Shown here one piece after another: positions 1,765 through 18,237 of a stretch of DNA of 24,737 nt. Every line of letters starts with the position of its first letter. The stretch's first letter is position 1. The translations under genes were made by a program, and so were the position numbers. The stretch lies in IMG/VR virus record IMGVR_UViG_2718218399_000013; one strand, written 5' to 3'. Under the pieces are notes generated by a model. That model had not been told where the DNA came from. It ran no database searches and was given only the letters and a program-made list of their open reading frames with translations. The DNA is from a virus. Its lineage: Duplodnaviria > Heunggongvirae > Uroviricota > Caudoviricetes.

Positions 1765-4098
1765 TTATTTCGCTGCAAACTCATCGCATTTTGGCAACCA
1801 GTCAGCATTGCTTTCCTCTCTTAGGGCCAGATTAGTCTGCATTCCTTGATTGGTCCGTCGTTTCTCATACTGCAGCCCATATTCCTTGAGCATTAACGGT
1901 AGCCCCTTGCCAAACATGGTCAGACTGAGCGTATTTTTATAGCCGTTAGCCTCCATGTAGACCAGATAGGCATGGTAGAGGTAAGTTCGAGGCTGACGTG
2001 GAACAATATTAGCGTTCCCCATAAACATGCCCGTGGTGTCAGGTAGGACCTCAAGGTAGCCGCAAAAATCAAAAGCTGAATCAGCATCACGTTTGATGGT
2101 GAGCGCTTCATCGGAGTTCTGCTGTGACTGAAGCAATGTCCTGGCACTCATTGGGTCGCTGAAACGCTGCATAAGCTGGCGAACAATCACCGCTAGCTCA
2201 CTGGCAATTTTCTCTTTGAGCTGGGTATCGCGTTCCTCCGGGGCTATCTGGTCGGGGAAATGCAGGATCACCCTTCGGCGTGAAACTCCACCACTACGAT
2301 CAGTGAAGCGCATCGGATTATTGTTCACAGCCAGGATGACCGCCGGGATGTGGGTTGAATAGGCGTTCTGATATTTGGGATCAACGGATACCGCATCGCC
2401 GCCAGTGATGGCTTTTAGTCCGGCCCCGTCACCGCTCCACTTTTCCTGGTCGGGAAGTCGAATCAGTGAAAAACCTATTAACGCAGCTCGTTCTCTTGGC
2501 GACTCAAGCATTTCAATGGTTGCCGAGGTCGCGTTATCTTCACCCGCCAGCATGGTTGCTATTTCAGCAAGAATACTCTTTCCACTTCCGCCAGGGCCAG
2601 TGACCTCCAGAAACAGCTGCCAGTCATAACGGTTAGCCAGCACCATAAACAATGCAGCCAGAATAATGTCCCGTTTTTCAGGATTAAAACCTGCGGCACG
2701 ATCCAGCCAGCGCCAGAATGCCGGGGCATGGGTTTCCAGTGACTCACCGTCAACGGGCTGCGTGTAATCCACCTCGCACAGCGTACGTAACCAGTGCTTC
2801 TTATCGTGCGGGCTGAACAATCCTGTCCGGGTATCGAGCACACCGTTGCGAAATCCGATAAGTTGCCGCGCCGGATTCTGCTGTTGCGGAACGATCAGTT
2901 TGAGGGTTTCCACGAGAGACGCAATTTTCGCGGATGAAAAAGGTGCGTCGAGGCGCTGAAACAGCGCAGCGACATCACGGGCAAAATCGGCGTAATAGAT
3001 AACTTTCCAGGCCCCCGCCTCATAGCGTGAAAGGAGCTGCCCGTTCGGGTCTACTGCCAGTGAATTTTTATAGTGATCCACTACCCTCTGCGCTTTTTCG
3101 CTGACGCTCAGCGCGGTAAATTCAGCTTCGCTCATTGTGTCGAAGGGGCTGGCAACAGCTGGTTTTATTACTTCATGAATTGCATGCCGGGTGGCTTCTT
3201 CGCCGTTTTGCGTGAATGCATCGTTCCAGTCACCAAACACAGGCGGGAGCGCCATTGTGCAATTGCAGGCCCCGGTAACAGCTGCGCCCCTTGTTTGCCC
3301 CGCACCGTTGAGATCGCGGTCAGCAGCAATAATTATCTGGTGCGTTGGGTACTCACTGCAGGCAATGCTCGCCAGGGAAAGGAAATTGACGGACGAAAAG
3401 GCCACCATGACAGCATCGCCAGTCAGATAGTTGATAGTAAGTGCGGTGGCATATCCTTCCGCTATCCAGAGCCGTTTGGCTGCTTTGGCAGTACCTTCAA
3501 CCAGGTAAAAGGCATTCTTAACCTGACCGCCTTTAAGGAAGCATTTGCCCCCATTAGCGTTGATTAACTGCAGATTTACCAGCTCTCCATCTGCATACAA
3601 TGGAACGACAAGATCTCCCGCGCGAAATGCCACACCACCGACTTTATGCATAGCGGTTAATTCCCGGCAAGGCAGTGCAGGAAACCCTTTACTCGTCAGA
3701 TAGGCATTGCCAGTGGTCTGGCGGGACTTATCAAACAAACGGGCAGCCAGCACTGCTGCAGCTTTTCTCCCGTCCTCTTTTTCAGGAGAACCAGATTCAA
3801 GCATTCCCTGAGATACTGGCAGCAGGTTTCCGATAATGCCGTTTATTCTGTCTGCCGCTTCACTAATGCCTACATCCAGTACTTTACTTACAAGCGCCAG
3901 GCCATCACCTGCCCCGCACTGGTTACAGAACCACGTTCCCCGCCCTTCCTGGTCATCAAATCGAAAGCGGTCTTTCCCGGCACAGACCGGGCAGGGCTGG
4001 TGCCGATTTTTCAGTACATTTACGCCCAGCGCAGGTAAAATTCTTGACCAGTGACCCCGAGCTGCTTTCTCAGCCTGGCTAACTTTCATTCCTGACAT
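1765..4098 (-). CDS. P4 alpha-type primase-helicase (zinc-binding primase, TOPRIM, D5-like helicase), 777 aa
   Basis: N-terminal CPVCAGKDRFRFDDQEGRGTWFCNQCG zinc motif, Walker A GPGGSGKS, 777 aa from the ATG at 4098 with RBS aaggagg 9 nt upstream (the ORF track's 4155 start adds a 19-aa extension without RBS); satellite-phage gene context. Confidence 0.85.
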   Translation of the reverse strand: MSGMKVSQAEKAARGHWSRILPALGVNVLKNRHQPCPVCAGKDRFRFDDQEGRGTWFCNQCGAGDGLALVSKVLDVGISEAADRINGIIGNLLPVSQGMLESGSPEKEDGRKAAAVLAARLFDKSRQTTGNAYLTSKGFPALPCRELTAMHKVGGVAFRAGDLVVPLYADGELVNLQLINANGGKCFLKGGQVKNAFYLVEGTAKAAKRLWIAEGYATALTINYLTGDAVMVAFSSVNFLSLASIACSEYPTHQIIIAADRDLNGAGQTRGAAVTGACNCTMALPPVFGDWNDAFTQNGEEATRHAIHEVIKPAVASPFDTMSEAEFTALSVSEKAQRVVDHYKNSLAVDPNGQLLSRYEAGAWKVIYYADFARDVAALFQRLDAPFSSAKIASLVETLKLIVPQQQNPARQLIGFRNGVLDTRTGLFSPHDKKHWLRTLCEVDYTQPVDGESLETHAPAFWRWLDRAAGFNPEKRDIILAALFMVLANRYDWQLFLEVTGPGGSGKSILAEIATMLAGEDNATSATIEMLESPRERAALIGFSLIRLPDQEKWSGDGAGLKAITGGDAVSVDPKYQNAYSTHIPAVILAVNNNPMRFTDRSGGVSRRRVILHFPDQIAPEERDTQLKEKIASELAVIVRQLMQRFSDPMSARTLLQSQQNSDEALTIKRDADSAFDFCGYLEVLPDTTGMFMGNANIVPRQPRTYLYHAYLVYMEANGYKNTLSLTMFGKGLPLMLKEYGLQYEKRRTNQGMQTNLALREESNADWLPKCDEFAAK

Positions 4099-4847: not shown

Positions 4848-5206
4848 GATGGCAGCCTCCAATAAGTAGCGGTTATTGCTACCACCGGAAACGCCAATTT
4901 CACTGGTGGCAGCCCGAACGGGGTTGGCGTAACCGGCCTTATTGGAAACCGGCCAGCCCGAAGGCTGCCCCGCCCGGACTACCATTATCTCGATAGAACC
5001 ATGGTGTAAGCATAAACACCACAGCCCTGAAAATGGTTGTGCCTGAGCTACGACGTAAAAAAAGACGCAAGGGGCGTCAATTGTCGCCAATAAGTTATAC
5101 GGAACGCCAATTCCGGCTGCCGATTTTGCGACAGCGGAAAAACTATACCTGGAAATGACGACAGTAAGCAAGCCAGAATAAAGGTATTTAATGTATGCAG
5201 GTATCA
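4848..5206 (-). ncRNA. candidate structured non-coding leader or immunity-RNA region of the P4-like left operon
   Basis: About 360 nt without a convincing ORF between the AlpA/Vis-like gene and the first small ORF; GC-rich direct repeats cagcccgaa (4910-4918, 4954-4962) and aaccggcc (4931-4938, 4947-4954) plus local hairpins (cagcc-cgaa-ggctg); P4 places its RNA-based immunity determinant at this position. Confidence 0.25.
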
Positions 5207-8388: not shown

Positions 8389-8955
8389 TTAAACAGGATA
8401 AAAACCAGAGCTTCCATTCTTATTTAAGTTATGGATTTTATTTGCATCATTAATTTTTATTTGGAACGTCGGACCTTTATTCTCAAGAATTACAATCTGG
8501 AAATTATAGTCCCTTTTGATTAATGCGTGATAAAATGAATCACTGAGACTGACGCTATTAACATCCGATAGAGAACCCCCTCTATCTTTATCAAAGTGCG
8601 TCACTAATGGACTATCAAGCACAACAAATCCAATGAATGGATTCCCTTTTCTTGATAAAAATTCCGCAAAGCAAATGGTAAATATAGCATGCATTACTGC
8701 ACGGGTACCTTTACCAAACATTCCTCGGCGTTTCCCATTGATATTAAAGTCATATGTATCTTCGTCAAATCGCACTTTGTTATCTTTAGAATTTTCAAAA
8801 TTTATATCATTCAAAAAGTCTTGCATCGCTATTTCTATATCATACAAATCAGCTACTGTTAAGGAGTCAAAGTCCTCGGCGGAGTATTTAAGTTCGTCAA
8901 CATCATCTTCTTTATCTTGTAATGAAGATAGAATGCTATGTTTTGTGTGATCCAT
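8389..8955 (-). CDS. C-terminal ABC-ATPase head fragment (Walker B / D-loop region), 188 aa; third piece of an SMC/Rad50-like ATPase
   Basis: FGKGTRAVMHAIF (degenerate signature-like) about 20 aa before GFVVLDSPL (Walker-B-like); start ATG overlaps the upstream stop as TAATG; AT-rich. Confidence 0.5.
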   Translation of the reverse strand: MDHTKHSILSSLQDKEDDVDELKYSAEDFDSLTVADLYDIEIAMQDFLNDINFENSKDNKVRFDEDTYDFNINGKRRGMFGKGTRAVMHAIFTICFAEFLSRKGNPFIGFVVLDSPLVTHFDKDRGGSLSDVNSVSLSDSFYHALIKRDYNFQIVILENKGPTFQIKINDANKIHNLNKNGSSGFYPV

Positions 8956-9545
8956 TAAAAGATTGTCTTTATATTCATAAAGTGATTCAAGAGATGAATG
9001 TATTGTTTTATATTTTTATCTTCTAACGTCTTAAAATCACTTTTTTCTGATTGATAAATTTCATTAACATCATTTTTTCTTAACATAATTAATTCATGTT
9101 CGCGAACATTAGATCCGATTGATTCAATTAATCCTTTCAGCTGGCTTTTGATTTTCAATTTTTCTGCATTACACGACAAAAAACAATCATCATATGATAT
9201 TTCATTTTCTTTTTTTTGCGGTGTATTACAGAACTCACAATAAATATCTGCAAAATTATTTAAATAGAAATTCGCCTGTGATACAACATCTATTCTTTGT
9301 AGATCTATAAAGTATTGGTCTTTAAGAAGACTAAATCTTTCAATGAGTAATGATAAGTATTTTTCCCTGTCACTGATTGAATATAATTCATCACTTAACT
9401 CTTTTAATAATTGCTTCTTATCATCAAGTGCATCAACAATACCTTTCAATATATCTTTCGATGATTCAATATCTTGCTCTACTTTCTCAAGTTCTCTTGA
9501 AACAATGACTTGATCATATTCAGGATAAATTAATTGCGCTTTCAA
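8955..9545 (-). CDS. coiled-coil middle segment of an SMC/Rad50-like ATPase with a possible zinc-hook motif, 196 aa; no ATG start, in frame with the upstream ORF across a single TAA
   Basis: Heptad-rich charged sequence; Cys cluster YCEFCNTPQKK...DCFLSCN; track start is TTG, first internal Met is near the C-terminus; upstream ORF is in the same frame, separated only by TAA at 9576-9578. Confidence 0.45.
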   Translation of the reverse strand: MKAQLIYPEYDQVIVSRELEKVEQDIESSKDILKGIVDALDDKKQLLKELSDELYSISDREKYLSLLIERFSLLKDQYFIDLQRIDVVSQANFYLNNFADIYCEFCNTPQKKENEISYDDCFLSCNAEKLKIKSQLKGLIESIGSNVREHELIMLRKNDVNEIYQSEKSDFKTLEDKNIKQYIHLLNHFMNIKTIF

Positions 9546-9575
9546 TTCCTCATAAATATTTGCAATTTGATTTTT

Positions 9576-10208
9576 TTAAAAATATCTTGCTTTTTTATTT
9601 GGTTTTTCTGCTAAGGAGTTAGTATCATCTCTCTGAGTTAAAAGGAATTTAAATTCAGACTTTCTTTTTGTCTCCTCGCTAGGAATATCAGAAAGAATTA
9701 ACGACTTCTCAGTTAACACTCTTAATTCATCAATACAAAAAAATTCAAAAACATTATTAAGATTAAATTTATGAAGAGTATTACTTAAGTTTGTTCTTAC
9801 TTTAGCCTCTTTGAAATTCAACCTACCATAAAAGTATGATGAAAAACTCTTTTTAGACGAAGCACTTTTGGAAAAAACCATCAACAGATTAGCTTCACTA
9901 ACATTTTCAATGCTCGAATCATATAATCTGTAATGGGCGCTATCCTGAAGAGACCTCTCAATTGTCATTACCCTACCTTGAAAATTAAATTCCAGATAGG
10001 CTAAATCATAACCTTGAGCATGATCGATATCTTTATTTTTTAGTTTTTCACTCCCTAATAAATATCGAATCAAATAATATATGTATGTTTTTCCAGAGTC
10101 AGAACCACCATATAAAATAGTCAATTTAGAACCAAATTCAATTATAGCATCTAATTTATTGAATCCGGTTACCTTTATTTTTCTGAACGTAAAAAAATTG
10201 TCATTCAT
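9576..10208 (-). CDS. N-terminal ABC-ATPase head (Walker A) of an SMC/RecF/Rad50-like protein, about 210 aa before an in-frame TAA
   Basis: FTFRKIKVTGFNKLDAIIEFGSKLTILYGGSDSGKTYIYYLI is a typical ABC/SMC N-terminal P-loop; candidate ATG starts at 10208 or 10226 (the track uses TTG at 10235); ends at TAA 9576-9578 with the next ORF in frame. Confidence 0.6.
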   Translation of the reverse strand: MNDNFFTFRKIKVTGFNKLDAIIEFGSKLTILYGGSDSGKTYIYYLIRYLLGSEKLKNKDIDHAQGYDLAYLEFNFQGRVMTIERSLQDSAHYRLYDSSIENVSEANLLMVFSKSASSKKSFSSYFYGRLNFKEAKVRTNLSNTLHKFNLNNVFEFFCIDELRVLTEKSLILSDIPSEETKRKSEFKFLLTQRDDTNSLAEKPNKKARYF

Positions 10209-10659
10209 AATTAAATTCCATATCATATTTGCCAATTTTATTTTTTATAATTGATTGCAACTGCTCATCAGGAATATCACTATATAACTTAACCACCAAA
10301 TTTATATTATGCTCCATCTGCGCAACATATTCATTATGTAGAGAATTTGTAAATGCATATGTTTTTTCAGAAGCTTTATATACAAAACCACGATGTGTAT
10401 AAATTTTTGAGGCTAGTTCATAGCCTTGCAACAAAGCCAATGATTCTAAAACAATCTCTCGTTTTAGGGCTAACTGAGCATCTCTACGGGGTATTGGAGG
10501 ATGAAGACTAATCTCTTCAGGTAAAAAATCCTTAAGATTTACTAAAATAAAATCAAAACAAATAAGCCGTTCAAGGCTTAATGAAGAAGGATAAATAGCG
10601 ACGAGCACTTTCGCCATTCGACATGCCACTTCTAAACTTGAATTATAAATTCTAACCAT
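10201..10659 (-). CDS. hypothetical small protein, 152 aa from the ATG at 10659; candidate small subunit of the cargo system
   Basis: ATG overlaps the upstream stop (TAATG); its stop lies 5 nt after the downstream ATG at 10208; AT-rich; no recognisable motif. Confidence 0.5.
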   Translation of the reverse strand: MVRIYNSSLEVACRMAKVLVAIYPSSLSLERLICFDFILVNLKDFLPEEISLHPPIPRRDAQLALKREIVLESLALLQGYELASKIYTHRGFVYKASEKTYAFTNSLHNEYVAQMEHNINLVVKLYSDIPDEQLQSIIKNKIGKYDMEFNYE

Positions 10660-11276
10660 TATCTCACCGTCCAAATTACTTCACCATCATTAACCAAATG
10701 ATGGCATATTCCTTTTTTATCATTTGCTTCACATATTTTTGATAGTACTGAATGTGCAATTGGTGTCAGAACAGCCTGCTTCAAGACTGCATTACACCTA
10801 ATAAATGCATAATTATGGTCTTCATAAAAGACGGGTTCAATTGAAGATGAAATGTAACATTTCAATGCTTTGAATACATCATCTTTAAATACTTCGCGGA
10901 CAAAAACCTCAAGCGAAGATGCAAAATAAAAATCATTTCTACTATTATTAAAGTGTCGTCTGTATGGATCATCAAGCTCTAAGAAAGAACTATAAGTTTT
11001 ATTTCCATGCTCTGAATAGGCTTGAAGCAGTGCATTAACATATACAGACTCTTTTTTTGAATTGTATGTTGGAATTTCATTTGGAGGGATTCTCACGACA
11101 TACAGCTCGTTAAAGTACTTAAAATAAAGGTGTGTATTTGCAATATCATTTAAAATCAATGATAAGGGTAGAGAGTAAAAAATACTAAAATCAAAATCCT
11201 CAATATATTTTTTTATTTCATCATCTAATGGAATATCAATCTTTTTAGTTATTTTTTTGAAATTGCTGAATCCCAT
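10659..11276 (-). CDS. hypothetical protein, 205 aa; possibly the C-terminal domain of the upstream Mrr-like nuclease ORF
   Basis: ATG lies 28 nt inside the upstream ORF with no clear RBS; one extra A in the A7 run at the junction would fuse the two ORFs in frame. Confidence 0.45.
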   Translation of the reverse strand: MGFSNFKKITKKIDIPLDDEIKKYIEDFDFSIFYSLPLSLILNDIANTHLYFKYFNELYVVRIPPNEIPTYNSKKESVYVNALLQAYSEHGNKTYSSFLELDDPYRRHFNNSRNDFYFASSLEVFVREVFKDDVFKALKCYISSSIEPVFYEDHNYAFIRCNAVLKQAVLTPIAHSVLSKICEANDKKGICHHLVNDGEVIWTVR

Positions 11277-11665
11277 GAATCAAGGACTGCTTTTTTAAGC
11301 TCGTTTTTATTTTTCAATAAATTAGAAAATGTAGTAGATAAATCATAGGGTGCCACAAAAAAGTACTTCTGAGGGATGGGATAATCACCATTCAGAGTAA
11401 AATAGATAAGTTTTCCAAACTCAACTACAACATCAGAGAACCCTAAACTTTTTTTGTACAGTTTGCATTGATAATTATCCCAAGAATAACCTTCTACGTT
11501 AGGATCCGATTTATATCCAACAACGTCTCTACCTTTATCTCCAGCTCCTCCCAAACGTTCGCTCCACGGGTAATCATCTGATTTACAGACAATAAGCCAA
11601 TCATGGACAAATACCTCCCATTGTTCATCATCCCATGTCAATATTTCCGAAAGTGGTTGAGACAC
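11249..11665 (-). CDS. Mrr-like PD-(D/E)xK restriction-endonuclease-fold protein, 138 aa; first gene of the cargo operon
   Basis: GGAGDKGRDVVGY ... YQCKLYKK matches the Mrr catalytic-domain pattern (G-x-G-D-x-G-x-D ... Q-x-K); GTG start with aaggag RBS embedded in the 3' end of int (int stop 3 nt upstream). Confidence 0.6.
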   Translation of the reverse strand: MSQPLSEILTWDDEQWEVFVHDWLIVCKSDDYPWSERLGGAGDKGRDVVGYKSDPNVEGYSWDNYQCKLYKKSLGFSDVVVEFGKLIYFTLNGDYPIPQKYFFVAPYDLSTTFSNLLKNKNELKKAVLDSWDSAISKK

Positions 11666-11668
11666 AAA

Positions 11669-12850
11669 TTAACTCCTTTTTAGTCTTTCAAATATCAAAT
11701 TACTGTACCAGTCCATCATAGACTTCCTTCCACTAAAATATTGAGCATGGTTATAAGTCCCCCTAATAGAATTTTTATCTACATGAGCCAACTGGATTTC
11801 AATCCAAGCACTCTCAAAACCTTGCTCATGCAGGATTGTAGAAAGGGTATGACGAAAACCATGTCCAGTGACTTTTCCTCCATACCCAATACGCTTAATG
11901 GCTTGATTTATACTCGCTTCGCTCATTGGCCTATTCGGATCGTTCCGCCCTGGAAAAACATAACGATAGTTCCCTGTCATGATCTTGAGTTCATTGAGTA
12001 AATCTACCGCTTGAGATGATAAGGGCACAAGATGTGGCCTACGCATTTTCATCCTTTCAGCAGGAATTTCCCAAATAGCGTTATCCAGATCAAATTCTTG
12101 CCATAATGCCGCGCGTAATTCGATGGTTCTCACACCCGTAATCATCAGTAATTTCGTGGCTATCTGGACAAGCTTACTCCCGGAGTAACCCTCTAAGGCA
12201 CGTAGAAAATCAGGTATCTCATCAGCTTTTAGGAATGGGAAATGATTGGATTGGTGTACTTCGAGAGCGCTGGAGAGATCAGCCGCAGGATTGTACTCCG
12301 CCCTACCCGTTGCAATTGCGTAGCGAAACACTTCGGAGCAACGCTGCCGCACTTTGCGCATTTTCTCCAACGCACCACGTTTCTCAATTTTACGCAGAAC
12401 GTTCAGCAGCTCTAGCGGTTTAATCTCTCCCACAGGCCTTGTTCCGACATAAGGAAAAATGTCGTTCTTAAACGCTTCCATGATGTCTGATGCATATCCC
12501 GCCGACCATTTAGCAGATTTAAGTTGATGCCACTCTCTGGCTATCTTTTCGAAGGCGTTCTCTGACTCTGTTTGCATAGCTAGCTTTTGCTCTTTTCGAA
12601 CCTCACTAGGGTTCTTTCCTTCTGCCACAAGTTTTCGAGCTTCATCACGACGGGAACGAGCATCGGCAAGGGTGATCGTTGGGTAAACACCAAGCGAGAT
12701 CATTTTGGGTTTGCCGGCATAGCGATAGCGGAACCGCCAACTCTTGCTTCCATTAGGTTCTATAAGTAATGACAACCCTAGCCCATCTCCAAATGTATAG
12801 GCTTTAGCTTCAGGCTTAGCGCGGCGAATCTGCATATCGTTTAAAGGCAT
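11669..12850 (-). CDS. P4-family tyrosine integrase, 393 aa
   Basis: N-terminus MPLNDMQIRRAKPEAKAYTFGDGLGLSLLIEPNGSKSWRFRY typical of P4/CP4-type integrases; C-terminal GHGFRHT ... Y catalytic region; adjacent to a partial thrW copy; the track's 12901 start adds 17 Cys-rich residues. Confidence 0.85.
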   Translation of the reverse strand: MPLNDMQIRRAKPEAKAYTFGDGLGLSLLIEPNGSKSWRFRYRYAGKPKMISLGVYPTITLADARSRRDEARKLVAEGKNPSEVRKEQKLAMQTESENAFEKIAREWHQLKSAKWSAGYASDIMEAFKNDIFPYVGTRPVGEIKPLELLNVLRKIEKRGALEKMRKVRQRCSEVFRYAIATGRAEYNPAADLSSALEVHQSNHFPFLKADEIPDFLRALEGYSGSKLVQIATKLLMITGVRTIELRAALWQEFDLDNAIWEIPAERMKMRRPHLVPLSSQAVDLLNELKIMTGNYRYVFPGRNDPNRPMSEASINQAIKRIGYGGKVTGHGFRHTLSTILHEQGFESAWIEIQLAHVDKNSIRGTYNHAQYFSGRKSMMDWYSNLIFERLKRS

Positions 12851-13012
12851 GTGTATAGGAATCCAGACCGAACAGGAACATATACACAATCCTATACACA
12901 TTCAGTACCGGATTCTACTGGATGGTTACGGACTACTATGGACTTAAAAGAATAAAAAATGTTATAAATCAGAGATTTTATGGACTAATACGGACGTTTG
13001 AGGAAGTTGAGA

Positions 13013-13058
13013 TGGTGCCGATAATAGGAGTCGAACCTACGACCTTCGCATTACGAAT
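13013..13058 (-). repeat. direct repeat: 46-nt copy of the thrW 3' end (att core) between the two elements
   Basis: 13013-13058 is identical to 23294-23339 (tggtgccgataataggagtcgaacctacgaccttcgcattacgaat); the 5' half of the tRNA is absent. Confidence 0.85.
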
Positions 13059-13405
13059 TATAAGAATCCGCTTCTAATTCAAAGCATTACCCCATCAACA
13101 CTGCGCTCACACGTCCCACCACATCAAAACATGTAAAGCCTTGCAAGCCATTGCGAGGCCTTATGTGTCTCAGTTTTGTCCCACCTTGTATTACGACTTG
13201 CATAGCCAATGAAGATAAACGTGACGACAAACGGCGCAGCAGTCTTCTTTTCTTTCACGACTTCTCCAGCATGCATACCTTTCTGCCATGACTGAAGTGA
13301 ATGCCTGTTATGAGCAAGGATTGGCCCAGATGAATCGCCCTGGACTGTTGCGATCGTGAAGCCATAGACTGGGCCGCAAGCACGGGAGGTTACGATAAAG
13401 CGACA

Positions 13406-13771
13406 GTGCAGGATGTCATGTTAGGAGCGATAGAAAAACGCTTTGGCGATAAAGTACCGGAACAGTCCATCCAGTGGCTGACAGATAACGGTTCAGCGTA
13501 TAGAGCGCATGAAACACGGCAGTTCGCCAGAGAGTTGAATCTGGAGCCCTGCACAACGGCAATCAGCAGTCCTCAGAGTAATGGAATTGCAGAAAGGTTC
13601 GTGAAAACGATGAAGGAAGACTACATCGCGTTCATGCCGAAACCGAATGTAAGAACGGCATTGCATAATCTTGCAGTGGCGATCGAACATTACAATGAAA
13701 ACCATCCGCACAGTGCGTTGGGTTATCGCTCTCCGCGAGAATATCGACGTCAGCGGGTAACGTTAACTTAA
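13406..13771 (+). pseudogene. IS3-family (IS2-like) transposase, C-terminal DDE-domain fragment
   Basis: [25 protein letters not shown] ... [19 protein letters not shown] ... [15 protein letters not shown] resembles the IS2 orfB C-terminus; no intact upstream reading frame; IR-like sequence gataccccccctgtctggaaataagggggcaa follows at about 13775-13806. Confidence 0.7.
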
Positions 13772-13812
13772 GATACCCCCCCTGTCTGGAAATAAGGGGG
13801 CAAGAACAATGA

Positions 13813-14556
13813 TCAGATTCCCTGGTGAGTAAGAATTTTACTTTCTGAACTCCTCTGAGAGTATTGACTTGGAGAAACACCAAAATAACGTCTAAATACA
13901 TAAGTAAAGTATGAGACACTGGCATAACCACAGACCTTAGCTACTTTACTAATAGGATAACAACGAGTGCTGAGTAAATATTCAGCCATTTGCATCCTCT
14001 CATCAAGTATGATCTTACTGAATGATACCCCCTCTTCTTTCAATTTCCTCTTTAGTAAACTTTCGCTGAGATATAATCTTGATGATATATCCTTAAGACG
14101 CCATGGTGCAGATAAATCCGTATGAATAATCGTTTTAACTTTAGCCCCTGTGCTTTTCAAACATCCAAACAGAAATACTCCAAATTGTTTTTCAGAAGAA
14201 AATGCAGAGAGACATGTAAAAGCAATAGACTCATCAAAAATTTCTATGTATTCAGCACAGTGATTAGCCCAACTAATTAATCCTTTAATTAAACTGAAGT
14301 CAGCAAAGTTTATTTTTAAATAAGATGGATATTCCCTACAATCAGAAATATCCCTTAAGTTATTAGCTTTCAAATAGCGACTAATAAACTCAGCGCCAAA
14401 ATCCGCCACTATCACTCTTTCAGGATATGTCAGGAAAAAATCTCTAGAGCTAGAGTCGACAAGTACAGATGAACCTCTCTCCAGAAACACACTCTCTTTT
14501 CCGAAATAAACATCAAAGGACTCCAAAATCAATATAACTGAACATGTAGTTGCCAT
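13813..14556 (-). CDS. AraC-family transcriptional regulator (AppY/GadX-like), 247 aa
   Basis: C-terminal double HTH WRLKDISSRLYLSESLLKRKLKEEGVSFSKIILDERMQMAEYLL ... GYASVSYFTYVFRRYFGVSPSQY; AT-rich; long AT-rich upstream region. Confidence 0.8.
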   Translation of the reverse strand: MATTCSVILILESFDVYFGKESVFLERGSSVLVDSSSRDFFLTYPERVIVADFGAEFISRYLKANNLRDISDCREYPSYLKINFADFSLIKGLISWANHCAEYIEIFDESIAFTCLSAFSSEKQFGVFLFGCLKSTGAKVKTIIHTDLSAPWRLKDISSRLYLSESLLKRKLKEEGVSFSKIILDERMQMAEYLLSTRCYPISKVAKVCGYASVSYFTYVFRRYFGVSPSQYSQRSSESKILTHQGI

Positions 14557-15138
14557 ATCATCCCCCCAATTTAACTGAAACCAGGATGAAGTATATGTAT
14601 ATAAAGTTCACTTTGCCAAACTTCAGTATAAAAAACCACTAAAAATAGGGTGTGATAAAAAATACCGTAACAATAAAGCAAAGGATTATAAATTCCGTTA
14701 CAGTTACAAATGATACTCAAGAAACAATTCCTTAGGAAAAACTTATTTACAGCCAATAAGTAAGACACTTATATGATATCAAGTTTTCATAAAACATAAC
14801 TAGGCTAAATAGCTGCGCCTAATACCGCTACACTTTTGCCAGCCCATGTTTGCCTCCGGGTATTGACCCCTTCTCTACGCAACTTCAGTTCCCACCACCA
14901 ACTTTGCGGCAGCTTTGTAGGATCAATGTCTAAAAGAATAATGGTGACCGATAAGAAAACGACTGAATAACTGCAGATTTTCGCTCAAAACCTTCCTGTC
15001 AGATCCATAGCGAATCAAGTGCTGAATGTCACAGTATCGAACAGAAAACAGTGACGATCTAACCCTTCAAGAATATTCTACGATTGTTCTGTTTAGGAAA
15101 AGCAAGACGGGAAGTCGGGAGATAAGTCATTGATAAAG

Positions 15139-15200
15139 TGGCGGAGAGAGGGGGATTTGAACCCCCGGTAGAGTTGCCCCTACTCCGGTTTTCGAGACCG
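15139..15200 (-). pseudogene. partial tRNA-Ser (CGA anticodon, serU-like): 3' 62 nt only
   Basis: Minus strand reads ggtctcgaaaaccggagtaggggcaactctaccgggggttcaaatccccctctctccgcca, matching the anticodon arm to CCA end of serU-type tRNA-Ser; the 5' part including the D-arm is absent. Confidence 0.65.
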
Positions 15201-15283
15201 ACCCGATCATCAAACGAAACATAAAATTAGCTCACATTATGAGGAAAGGTATCTTTTTGCGCTATGTAAATTCAAAGGGTTAG

Positions 15284-16153
<870 letters not shown>

Positions 16154-16210
16154 ATCTTCAAGTGGTAAGCATAAACCGCAGCACGATCTTGCATACGACG
16201 TGCTACGGTT

Positions 16211-16765
16211 TCATTTATCTCCGGCCGGAAACTTCTTATACAGTGTCGATACACCAACATCATAGATGATCGCTACCTTCTGGCGAGGAATTCCTGCTGC
16301 AATTAATCGTCCGGCCTGCGCCCATTGTTCTGGTGTAAGTTTGGGACGACGTCCACCAATTCGTCCCTGTGCGCGAGCAGCTTCCAGTCCAGCTTTTGTT
16401 CGTTCAACAATCAGTTCTCGTTCCATTTCAGCCAGGGCCCCCATCACATGAAAGAAAAAGCGCCCCATTGGGGTACTGGTATCAATAGCATCCGTCAGGC
16501 TGCGAAAATTAACGCCACGTTCGCGCAACTCCTCAACCAGAATGACCAGATGCCGCATACTGCGCCCCAGCCGATCCAGTTTCCAGACAACCAGAGTGTC
16601 ACCTGCCGATAATGTCCTGAGCAGTTTTTTCAGTCCCGGCCTTTCGGACTTTGTACCGCTTATCTTGTCTTCAAAAATCAGCTCGCATCCTGCACAGTTC
16701 AGCGCATTACGTTGTAGATCTGTGTTCTGGTCATTTGTTGACACACGTACATAGCCAATAAGCAT
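16211..16765 (-). CDS. pin: Pin/Gin/Hin-family serine DNA invertase, 184 aa
   Basis: MLIGYVRVSTNDQNTDLQRNAL ... GDTLVVWKLDRLGRSM ... GRIGGRRPKLT is near-identical to the e14 Pin sequence as recalled; a 26-bp crossover-type site lies just upstream. Confidence 0.9.
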   Translation of the reverse strand: MLIGYVRVSTNDQNTDLQRNALNCAGCELIFEDKISGTKSERPGLKKLLRTLSAGDTLVVWKLDRLGRSMRHLVILVEELRERGVNFRSLTDAIDTSTPMGRFFFHVMGALAEMERELIVERTKAGLEAARAQGRIGGRRPKLTPEQWAQAGRLIAAGIPRQKVAIIYDVGVSTLYKKFPAGDK

Positions 16766-16819
16766 GGTAGATCTCCCTGACAAAAGCAGGAATGATGCCA
16801 TTTGCTCGTTATTTCTGCA

Positions 16820-16845
16820 TTTTCATAAACGTTGGTTTGGGAGAA
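16820..16845. repeat. pix/gix-type recombination site (proximal) of the invertible segment
   Basis: ttttcataaacgttggtttgggagaa; its reverse complement shares the half-site ttctcccaaaccaa with the site at 18373-18398 and fits the Hin/Gin crossover-site pattern. Confidence 0.6.
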
Positions 16846-17254
16846 GCGGCAAAACGGGATGTGGGGACAGGGGAAAATCAGATACCGGACATGGCTCTTT
16901 GCCATGTATGGATGGATGAAATTACCCAACGGGAAAATCCTGCAATATGTCTGGTGCGGTTTCCCGCATTATCGACGCCGTGAATTCATTCGATCTATCC
17001 CAGGCGACTGCGCGAATTATTCTGGAGGCAGTACCTTTAGGCCGGGTAGGCGAGGTGCGGGACACGCAATTAACTTTCATGATGCATCGCGAATCACCAG
17101 GACACGATTAATTACAGTTGTGGGTGTGGTGGAATTTTTTCAGTCAGGGAATATGCATTATTTTGTAGGCAAATAATGACCTGTTTTTGATGAAAATGGG
17201 CTGGCTACAGGCGCATATGGTGTTTATATATGCTAATCTGAGTATAGGCTGTCG

Positions 17255-17708
17255 ATGAAAATTATATGCGTAGTATGCCGCCTGCATGGTATTGACCCTG
17301 GCGAAAACATTCCGGGAAGAGTTGCAGTATTTACAGGTAAGGGATGGAGCCATGAAGAAGACCATCGCAATGAGACTGTTTACTCAATCGAAAATGGCGC
17401 AGCTGTTACAGTGGATTATATCGGTGCCATCAAAGACGGTTATGTCACGATTTCACCGTTAACGCCATACGATAAATGGGATGGTGAGAAATGGGTGACA
17501 GACACTGAGGCACAACACAGTGCCGCAGTAGACGCGGCAGAAGCACAGCGCCAATCACTGATTGATGCAGCAATGGCTTCCATTAGTCTGATTCAGCTGA
17601 GTTACAGGCCGGACGGAAACTGACTCAGGCAGAAACAACCCGACTTAACGCCGTGCTGGATTACATTGACGCGGTGACGCAACATACCACCGCGCCGATT
17701 CATCTGGC
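17255..17708 (+). pseudogene. tail fibre assembly protein (Tfa-family), frameshifted twice near the 3' end
   Basis: GYVTISPLTPYDKWDGEKWVTDTEAQHSAAVDAAEAQRQSLIDAAMASISLIQL, then LTQAETTRLNAVLDYIDAVT and IWPELPEA-stop in two other frames (about 17600-17708). Confidence 0.65.
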
Positions 17709-18237
17709 CTGAACTGCCGGAGGCGTAGGCCATTCAATATCTGGCGCACCGGAAGTATCGACCAGCTCCAGTGCGTCCATTTCCGATTATATCGTCATTC
17801 GTCACCTTCAGGACCATCCCTTACCGCATTGCTACTGTTCATGTATTCGTTGGCCTGGTTAATTAGTAGCTGTCTTTCTGATTCAGTAATTTCAATAAGC
17901 TCTTCATGCGTGGTAGATATCTGCCACGCAGCAGCCATCATTCGCAATACGGATTTCCGCGGCACTGTAGCCAGCCATTTTCATCAAAACAGTTTCATTA
18001 TTTAGCCCTCACCAGAAAGTTAAATGCAATATTTCGCGGTCTGACTGCAACAAAATTCACACCATCACCCACAGACTGTGAATTAATCGTGAATCCTGGC
18101 TGATTTCCGGCGATGCCATCATGAAAGTTAATTGCGTGTCCCGCACCTTCGCCTATATCCGCAACTGAGAAAGTTGTAGCGCCTGCCAGCTAATAATGCG
18201 ACACGTCTGCACTCGCCGTCATCCAGATACGAATGAA

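What the first reader, a model, noticed from the sequence alone, without database searches (positions are those of the whole stretch)
15139..15200. Orphan 3' fragment of tRNA-Ser (serU-like) inside the prophage remnant
A 62-nt stretch matches the anticodon arm to CCA end of tRNA-Ser(CGA) but lacks the 5' part. Such fragments are typical footprints of attP or attR sites of elements that integrate into serU, hinting at recombination between elements from different tRNA sites or a module boundary within the remnant. It lies just upstream of the GIY-YIG-like ORF.
Basis: partly seen in the sequence, partly recalled or inferred. Interest (0 to 1): 0.45.

Follow-up and report, generated by a model that had tools for sequence, protein, structure and literature searches.

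The report
Fossil serU phage attachment site
The 62-base tRNA-Ser fragment is the dead right-hand attachment scar (attR) of a phage that once sat in the serU tRNA gene; it was carried off with 278 bases of neighbouring host DNA, is still present in living lambda-like phages, and reached the O157:H7 thrW prophage remnant that way, which makes it an ordinary but tidy record of phage mosaicism.

Summary
Window 15139-15200 (minus strand) is 62/62 identical to the 3' part of E. coli serU, from the anticodon stem to CCA. It is not a tRNA gene.

It is an attR-type junction that is no longer at serU. The 278 bp on its CCA side (14861-15138) are the chromosomal DNA that follows serU in 5404 of 5426 E. 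coli genomes. The other side (GIY-YIG, pin, tail fibre) is collinear with the right end of a complete prophage found in place at serU in strain MB15.

The host flank stops at 14860/14861, where it is fused to the interior of an IS630-family relic. That is an illegitimate joint.

The block IS3'-AraC-IS630'-flank-serU' (13335-15201) is 99% identical in three deposited complete lambda-like phage genomes: ev099, mEp332 and PhiR70_1. In ev099 and mEp332 it lies between the tail-fibre genes and a lambda-type attP-int. It spans the joint in 535 E. coli genomes. O157's own serU flank is only 97% identical.

So the scar was captured once by a phage lineage. One member with a thrW integrase decayed into this remnant (Sakai Sp1).

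The fragment is probably inert, because other copies carry T-loop mutations or an insertion. It does mark a module-swap point. It is a new example of a known kind, of modest interest.

The parts
15139..15200 (-). serU' : the 62-nt 3' part of tRNA-Ser(CGA), from the second base of the anticodon stem (serU position 29) to CCA. It is the core identity block of serU-integrating phages.
   Evidence: 62/62 identity to serU. Unique in the window, 0 matches in 100 shuffles. The same 62-63 nt block sits next to the integrase gene in phages Chris1 and KpF5 and in SerU-LTIIb's in-place attR.
14861..15138 (-). 278 bp of captured host DNA: the chromosomal sequence immediately 3' of serU, part of the serU-yodB intergenic region (the B' side of attR).
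   Evidence: 96-99% identity to the DNA directly abutting serU in 5404 of 5426 E. coli genomes. K-12 and Sakai alignments. Seven SNPs at 14913-14991 are shared by all displaced copies and absent from the four native copies compared.
14805..14860 (.). 56-bp terminal relic of an IS630-family (ISEc33-like) element. Its terminus is at 14805. Its truncated interior is fused to the host flank at 14860/14861, which is the novel joint.
   Evidence: Alignment to ISEc33 in strain PSS-10 and its inverted-repeat end. The identical joint is present in ev099, mEp332, strain 120899 and E2386 and in 30 IMG/VR viral contigs.
13813..14556 (-). AraC-family regulator gene, cargo of the shared block.
   Evidence: RefSeq annotation. 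Pfam HTH_AraC 1.3e-16 and HTH_18. 99% identical in ev099, mEp332 and PhiR70_1.
13335..13771 (+). IS3-family transposase relic. 13335 is the left end of the block shared with ev099 and mEp332; the annotated integrase-core pseudogene occupies about 13337-13771.
   Evidence: Annotation as an integrase-core-domain pseudogene. Matches to IS3-family elements. The phage homology boundary falls at 13335.
13013..13058 (-). thrW' : a 46-nt 3' fragment of thrW. This is the real right end (attR) of the lambdoid remnant and the junction with the P4-like element.
   Evidence: Direct repeat with thrW. The adjacent 13059-13334 resembles the region next to attP in phage 21 and lambda at 87%.
15201..16153 (+). 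Phage-side arm (15201-15379) and the LEM-3-like GIY-YIG gene (15380-16153). Together these are the right end of a serU-integrating myovirus-type lambdoid prophage.
   Evidence: Window 14861-16905 is collinear at 95.8% with the in-place attR end of the MB15 serU prophage. Pfam LEM-3_GIY-YIG 3.3e-14.
16211..16765 (-). pin-type serine DNA invertase, followed by tail-fibre fragments up to about 18970. Same origin as the GIY-YIG arm.
   Evidence: Annotation. Pfam Resolvase 8.3e-52. Collinear with MB15 and EcE.CRE.COL prophage ends.
18971..22361 (.). Early region of the remnant (O/P fragments, cII, cro, cI, N side), 97-99% identical to phage ev099.
   Evidence: BLAST of the window against ev099 and mEp332. 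Annotations.
23294..23369 (-). Intact thrW (tRNA-Thr CGT), the attachment site actually used by the remnant. A truncated integrase gene lies next to it.
   Evidence: ARAGORN and Rfam. Annotation.

Best explanation
The fragment is a fossil, displaced attR (phage arm, 62-nt serU core, host arm). Proposed history follows.

Step 1, shown by anatomy: a temperate phage integrated into serU by tyrosine-integrase recombination. Its attP carried a 62-nt block identical to the serU 3' part, starting in the anticodon stem. This left a displaced 3' fragment at the prophage's right end, followed by host DNA.

Step 2, inferred: an imprecise excision or illegitimate recombination took that right end with 278 bp of host DNA into a phage genome, in the manner of lambda-bio. 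It fused the host DNA to the interior of an IS630-family element beside an AraC gene, in the region between the tail-fibre genes and attP (the 'b region').

Step 3, shown: the resulting block persists at 99% identity in the lambda-like phages ev099, mEp332 and PhiR70_1; ev099 and mEp332 carry a lambda-type attP and int. It also persists in thrW-integrated prophages, so it has been passed between phages with different integration modules.

Step 4, shown: one thrW-integrating carrier lysogenised the O157:H7 lineage and decayed into this remnant (Sakai Sp1, alongside the P4-like Sp2).

Step 5, shown as a pattern, mechanism inferred: the DNA on the phage side of the core was exchanged at or near the core between two kinds of serU-phage arm.

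Today the fragment is most likely inert. It is not a tRNA and not the att site used by either resident element. It only offers about 340 bp of homology plus an integrase core sequence.
For: Exact 62-nt identity, and no tRNA call.

The host flank abuts serU in 5404 of 5426 genomes.

The orientation matches in-place attRs: yodB side, serU', tail-fibre side in SerU-LTIIb, Sakai Sp14 and MB15. In genuine attPs the integrase gene occupies the CCA side.

The remnant is bounded by thrW and thrW', not by serU repeats.

The block 13335-15201 is 98.8-99.3% identical in three complete phage genomes. In ev099 and mEp332 it lies between tfa and a lambda-type attP core plus int.

Strain 120899 has an apparently complete prophage of about 42 kb at thrW with the same block at the same place.

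O157's own serU flank differs at 10 of 337 positions. All displaced copies compared share 7 private SNPs and the same joint, which points to a single capture.

The joint is 56 bp inside an IS630-family element, so it is not an IS terminus or an att junction.

535 genomes span the joint, as do 30 IMG/VR viral contigs.

Other copies carry T-loop substitutions, a 1-nt deletion, or a 1.3-kb insertion inside the fragment. This fits an absence of selection on the tRNA sequence.
Against: The capture mechanism is not observable. Imprecise excision cannot be told apart from recombinational pick-up from a lysogen, for example one crossover in tail-fibre genes and one in an IS.

In ev099 only 115 bp of the original phage arm remain, so both sides of the scar have been reworked since.

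Which of the two arm types was the original one is unresolved.

It is also possible that IS630'-AraC-IS3' was host DNA downstream of serU in an unsampled donor strain, rather than phage b-region DNA.

Inertness is inferred, not tested.
Confidence: 0.85

Rival explanations
1. The scar is a live secondary attachment site. A serU-specific phage (the GIY-YIG/pin myovirus type) integrated by its own integrase into the fossil attR carried in the resident lambda-like prophage. Later deletion left only its right end. Under this reading the fragment works as a portable landing pad that nests phages inside phages.
For: The two arm types change exactly at the edge of the 62-nt core, while the other side stays 99% identical. 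Window 14861-16905 looks just like an in-place attR of the MB15-type phage. One deletion from its tail-fibre genes to gene P of the lambda-like phage would give the Sp1 layout.
Against: The reciprocal hybrid junction (MB15-type P' arm, core, ev099-type P arm) was not found in any of 5426 E. coli genomes. No diagnostic SNPs lie between 14992 and 15200, so ordinary homologous recombination within about 210 identical bases explains the swap equally well. attR is a poor substitute for attB in the lambda paradigm (general knowledge).
Confidence: 0.1
2. The fragment is a recent intragenomic copy. Ectopic recombination or gene conversion in the O157 lineage, between the thrW prophage and the Sp14 prophage at O157's own serU, moved attR and flank to thrW.
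For: O157 does carry a lambdoid prophage (Sp14) at serU with its own attR. Prophage-prophage recombination is well documented in O157 (PMC2669165).
Against: The thrW copy differs from O157's own serU flank at 10 of 337 positions but is 99% identical to copies in free phages and in unrelated strains. The phage-side arm is unrelated to Sp14's arm. The same joint exists in strains without the O157 background and in phage genomes.
Confidence: 0.02
3. The fragment is the functional attP or att site of one of the two resident elements, the lambdoid remnant or the P4-like satellite.
For: It has the same orientation as thrW and lies 2.3 kb upstream of the P4-like integrase gene. tRNA 3' fragments normally flank such elements.
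Against: Both elements are delimited by thrW-derived repeats: 23294-23369, 13013-13058, and a short repeat at 109-132. The CCA side of the fragment is host DNA, not an integrase gene. The P4-like int sits directly next to thrW', as does the corresponding integrase in strain 120899.
Confidence: 0.02
4. Chance similarity, or an unrecognised functional RNA such as a truncated tRNA or tRNA-derived regulator.
For: Sub-threshold Rfam hits overlap it: Plastid-psbl-rps4 at 40.9 bits against a cut-off of 68, and tRNA-Sec at 27.5 against 47.
Against: 62/62 identity with 0 expected by chance. The Rfam hits simply reflect tRNA-Ser-like sequence and are below their thresholds. No promoter-like site lies upstream on the tRNA strand and no terminator-like site was found. 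Other copies have mutated T loops or an insertion.
Confidence: 0.01

Closest known systems
Displaced tRNA-gene fragments that mark the far end of integrated phages and islands (attR), as catalogued in Islander (PMC4383910)
   Same: It is a 3' tRNA-gene fragment created by tyrosine-integrase integration. The identity block runs from the anticodon arm to the 3' end. Phage DNA lies on one side and host DNA on the other.
   Different: It is not at its tRNA locus and does not mark the end of the element it lies in. That element is bounded by thrW repeats, and the host arm is only 278 bp long before it ends in an illegitimate joint.
Specialised transducing phages of the lambda-bio type (general knowledge)
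   Same: A hybrid att site (P-O-B') plus adjacent host DNA is carried inside a phage genome. The cognate integrase is absent. A novel non-att joint is present.
   Different: The captured host DNA is tiny, non-coding and old. The carrier lineage has an unrelated attP-int (lambda-type or thrW-type) and is found in nature rather than selected in the laboratory. The forming event is inferred.
In-place attR of serU prophages: SerU-LTIIb (KU052038), Sakai Sp14, and the MB15 serU prophage
   Same: The same 62-nt core, the same host flank and the same orientation. The MB15 arm (GIY-YIG-pin-tail fibre) matches the window at 95.8% over 2 kb. The SerU-LTIIb arm matches the ev099 copy.
   Different: In those, the flank continues to yodB and an intact serU plus integrase sit at the other end of the prophage. 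Here neither is true.
b-region cargo of the lambda-like phages ev099 (NC_049953), mEp332 (PV340541) and PhiR70_1 (PV340577)
   Same: The block IS3'-AraC-IS630'-flank-serU' is 98.8-99.3% identical. The immunity and replication region of the remnant is also 97-99% identical to ev099.
   Different: ev099 and mEp332 carry a different phage-side arm next to the core and use a lambda-type attP core. The window's prophage used thrW and is heavily deleted.

Membership tests
Functional tRNA-Ser gene | Complete cloverleaf: acceptor 5' strand, D arm, anticodon arm, long variable arm and T arm | tested here: not met
   Only serU positions 29-90 are present. ARAGORN gives no call. Rfam's tRNA model is below threshold.
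attR of a tRNA-integrating tyrosine-recombinase phage | Identity block equal to the 3' part of the target tRNA gene, and the same block present in attP of independent phages next to their int | tested here: met
   62/62 identity to serU. 62-63 nt blocks sit next to the integrase genes of Chris1 and KpF5.
attR of a tRNA-integrating tyrosine-recombinase phage | Host DNA on the 3' (CCA) side collinear with the native locus | tested here: met
   278 bp at 96-99% identity to the DNA abutting serU in 5404 of 5426 genomes.
attR of a tRNA-integrating tyrosine-recombinase phage | Phage DNA on the 5' side collinear with the right end of a prophage seen in place at that tRNA | tested here: met
   MB15 carries a complete serU prophage ending tail fibre-pin-GIY-YIG-serU'-yodB. 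Window 14861-16905 is collinear with it at 95.8%.
attR of a tRNA-integrating tyrosine-recombinase phage | Located at the target tRNA locus, with the regenerated tRNA and the cognate integrase at the other end of the same element | tested here: not met
   The locus is thrW. The element is bounded by thrW and thrW', and no serU-type integrase or intact serU is in the window. Hence 'fossil, displaced attR' and not a working attR.
Specialised-transduction-type capture (lambda-bio-like) | Hybrid att plus adjacent host DNA carried within complete phage genomes | tested here: met
   Present in ev099, mEp332 and PhiR70_1. Located between tfa and attP-int in ev099 and mEp332.
Specialised-transduction-type capture (lambda-bio-like) | Novel joint made by illegitimate recombination, not an att site or IS terminus | tested here: met
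   Flank position 278 is fused to a point 56 bp inside an ISEc33-like element, with at most minimal microhomology.
Specialised-transduction-type capture (lambda-bio-like) | Origin by imprecise excision of the integrated prophage | not testable with these tools
   A historical event. Recombinational pick-up from a lysogen would leave the same product.
Active attP of the resident elements | Cognate integrase gene next to the CCA side of the core, and a matching repeat at the other end of the element | tested here: not met
   The CCA side is host DNA followed by an IS relic and AraC. The 62-mer occurs only once in the window.

The most novel reading that the evidence does not exclude
The fossil attR is a portable recombination site. 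Because it keeps the full integrase core and about 340 bp of serU-locus homology, it lets serU-specific phages recombine into, or swap right-end modules with, prophages that live at other sites. This could happen by Int-mediated or homologous exchange. In strains that also carry a serU prophage, as O157 does with Sp14, it could also seed large chromosomal inversions between thrW and serU, because the two sites are in inverted orientation.
Probability: 0.12. Interest if true: 0.5.

Novelty: new member of a known kind. Interest (0 to 1): 0.3.

Why it matters
It explains an odd tRNA fragment in a much-studied pathogen genome. The O157:H7 Sp1 remnant turns out to be a composite of an ev099-like lambda phage and the right end of a serU-type myovirus-like prophage.

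It also gives a natural example of a specialised-transduction-like scar that has survived inside phage genomes. The same joint is in about 10% of complete E. coli genomes in RefSeq, a set rich in O157.

In practice, such displaced fragments can mislead tools that define island or prophage ends by tRNA-fragment repeats. The unique 14860/14861 joint is a convenient lineage marker for this phage block.

It does not reveal a new mechanism.

Tried and rejected
Complete or functional tRNA: rejected.

Recent copy of O157's own serU/Sp14 attR: rejected on sequence divergence and a different arm.

att site of the P4-like element or the lambdoid remnant: rejected, because thrW repeats delimit both.

IS630 insertion as the cause of the flank's end: rejected. 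The IS terminus faces away from the flank, and the flank is fused to the IS interior.

Nested integration: I built a chimeric query for the reciprocal junction (MB15-type P' arm, core, ev099-type P arm) and found no genome covering it. This is negative but not decisive, because P' variants exist.

Spread outside E. coli: the exact joint 31-mer is absent from the representative genomes of 185,579 GTDB species.

Promoter and terminator scan around the fragment: nothing relevant.

Literature: searches for serU/thrW/prophage, mEp332 and the O157 defective-prophage paper gave no description of this fragment. PMC2669165 only calls Sp1 a highly degraded or chimeric prophage.

Locating the arm swap with SNPs: uninformative, because there are no diagnostic sites between 14992 and the core.

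Full report
**Where the window comes from.**
The window is 99-100% identical to the E. coli O157:H7 thrW region. This is EDL933 at about 300-325 kb, or Sakai prophages Sp1 and Sp2.

Layout from right to left in window coordinates:
- thrW at 23294-23369 on the minus strand.
- A truncated integrase gene, then cI, cro, cII and fragments of the replication genes.
- Tail-fibre fragments with a pin invertase.
- A LEM-3-like GIY-YIG gene (15380-16153).
- The fragment in question (15139-15200).
- An AraC-family gene (13813-14556) and an IS3 relic.
- A 46-nt 3' fragment of thrW (13013-13058).
- A P4-like satellite: integrase 11669-12901, defence cargo, psu, delta, C4 and isrK RNAs, and a primase.

A third short thrW-related repeat at 109-132 closes the array. 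The fragment therefore lies inside the lambdoid remnant, whose true ends are thrW and thrW'.

**The observation.**
On the minus strand, 15139-15200 equals serU positions 29-90 with no mismatch. That span runs from the second base of the anticodon stem, through the CGA anticodon, the long variable arm and the T arm, to CCA.

The reference was verified against genomes. The match is unique in the window and absent from 100 shuffles. No tRNA is called there. Sub-threshold Rfam hits (a plastid motif, tRNA-Sec) merely reflect tRNA-Ser-like sequence.

**What lies on each side.**
The 278 bp on the CCA side (14861-15138) match, at 96-99%, the DNA that directly follows serU in 5404 of 5426 E. coli genomes. 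In K-12 this is part of the 570-bp serU-yodB spacer. So the fragment still has its host arm and is an attR-type junction.

The orientation agrees with attRs seen in place:
- yodB, flank, serU', side tail fibres in prophage SerU-LTIIb.
- The same order for Sakai Sp14 and for strain MB15.
- In genuine attPs of serU-type phages (Chris1, KpF5), the CCA side instead carries the integrase gene.

The 62-nt block starts in the anticodon stem. This is the classical anticodon-loop class of tRNA integration sites (general knowledge). Islander describes how the displaced fragment marks island ends (PMC4383910).

On the other side, window 14861-16905 is collinear at 95.8% with the right end of a complete prophage of about 39 kb in strain MB15. 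That prophage runs mtfA, intact serU, cargo, int, early genes, HK97-type head, contractile tail, baseplate, tail fibre, pin, GIY-YIG, serU', yodB.

**The end of the host flank.**
At 14860/14861 the flank is fused to 56 bp of an IS630-family (ISEc33-like) element. The terminus of that IS is at 14805 and points away from the flank. The flank is therefore joined to the IS interior. This is an illegitimate joint, not an IS insertion site and not an att junction.

**The key comparison.**
The block 13335-15201 (IS3', AraC, IS630', flank, serU') is 98.8-99.3% identical in three complete phage genomes: ev099, mEp332 and PhiR70_1. In ev099 and mEp332 it lies between the tail-fibre assembly gene and an attP with the lambda core sequence, followed by int and xis.

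The remnant's early region (18971-22361) is also 97-99% identical to ev099. Strain 120899 has an apparently complete lambdoid prophage of about 42 kb at thrW with the block in the same place. A different P4-like satellite sits next to it. Strain E2386 has another decayed version.

Further points on the distribution and age of the block:
- 535 genomes span the joint, as do 30 IMG/VR viral contigs.
- No GTDB species representative carries the joint.
- O157's own serU flank differs from the displaced copy at 10 of 337 positions.
- All five displaced copies compared share seven private SNPs (14913-14991) and the same joint.

The capture therefore happened once, in a phage lineage, and the O157 remnant inherited it.

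**The module boundary.**
To the right of the core there are two arm types.
- ev099 and mEp332 keep about 115 bp of an arm matching SerU-LTIIb's in-place attR.
- O157, 120899 and E2386 have the GIY-YIG arm, which matches MB15's attR.
- Among the 30 viral contigs, 8 have the first type and 22 the second.

The exchange point lies between 14992 and 15200, a stretch with no diagnostic sites. It could therefore be homologous recombination or integrase-mediated exchange. The reciprocal junction expected from a nested integration was not found.

**Function.**
Several copies elsewhere have T-loop changes (AA to CC, or a one-base deletion), and one has a 1.3-kb insertion at the position of 15159. There is no promoter-like site on the tRNA strand. 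The fragment is best seen as an inert scar that still offers homology and an integrase core.

**Most likely history.**
1. Integration of a temperate phage at serU (shown by anatomy).
2. Imprecise excision or recombinational pick-up of attR with 278 bp of host DNA into a phage b region (inferred).
3. Spread of the block among lambda-like phages with different int/att modules (shown).
4. Exchange of the phage-side arm (pattern shown, mechanism open).
5. Lysogeny at thrW in the O157 lineage, followed by decay (shown).

**Comparison with what is known, and novelty.**
The kind is well known: displaced tRNA fragments at att sites, and lambda-bio-type capture of host DNA. The specific case appears undescribed. 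This covers a displaced serU attR with host flank carried in phage genomes, and its role as the seam of Sakai Sp1. The O157 prophage paper only calls Sp1 highly degraded or chimeric, and the other searches found nothing.

It is a new member of a known kind, with interest about 0.3.

Noticed in passing
window 13013-13058, 109-132 and 23294-23369: thrW and two thrW-derived repeats: a 46-nt 3' fragment, and a 24-nt repeat holding the last 6 nt of thrW plus its downstream flank. They delimit a tandem array at thrW, the lambdoid remnant (Sp1) next to a P4-like satellite (Sp2).
   Followed up: partly
window 17047-17956: The tail-fibre segment next to pin is inverted, with indels, relative to the EDL933 RefSeq record. 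The rest of the window is collinear at 99-100%. The Pin-invertible segment therefore sits in different orientations in different O157 assemblies.
   Followed up: no
window 4902-4989 and 5058-5135 (minus strand): C4 antisense RNA (84 bits) and isrK (71.9 bits), both above Rfam gathering scores, lie in the P4-like element near the Icd-like gene.
   Followed up: no
window about 8389-11665; L009 20640-23387: The cargo slot of the P4-like satellite, between delta/psu and int, holds an ABC-three-component system, an AAA ATPase and hypothetical genes in O157. In strain 120899 the same slot holds a SIR2-family gene. It looks like a variable defence hotspot.
   Followed up: no
L005 about 4975-5000 (strain EcE.CRE.COL, next to ssrA) and L007: In prophages lying beside ssrA, the same GIY-YIG arm is preceded by only about 19-20 nt of serU-like sequence, the anticodon stem-loop CGGTTTTCGAGACCGGTCC. 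The rest of the 62-nt block is missing and unrelated DNA (a type II restriction-modification system) follows. This could be recombination at a pseudo-att site. It is unexplained.
   Followed up: partly
L024 about 1972-3314 (IMG/VR contig 2537561945_000005); L022, L026, L027, L029, L030, L033, L036, L039: Other copies of the scar have decayed. One has a 1.3-kb insertion inside the T-loop region. Eight loci share an AA-to-CC change in the T loop. L018 and L020 have a 1-nt deletion.
   Followed up: partly
window 19499-19544: Two tandem 23-bp repeats (CCCC..TTTGAGGGATAGCAAT) lie inside the replication-gene fragment. They look like lambdoid ori iterons in an O-like gene.
   Followed up: no
window 14913-14991: The seven differences between the displaced and native serU flanks are clustered in 79 bp, and none occur in the 147 bp nearest the tRNA. 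A few native flanks (strains M00057, PCP07014) are 98.6-98.9% identical to the displaced copy and may point to the donor lineage.
   Followed up: no
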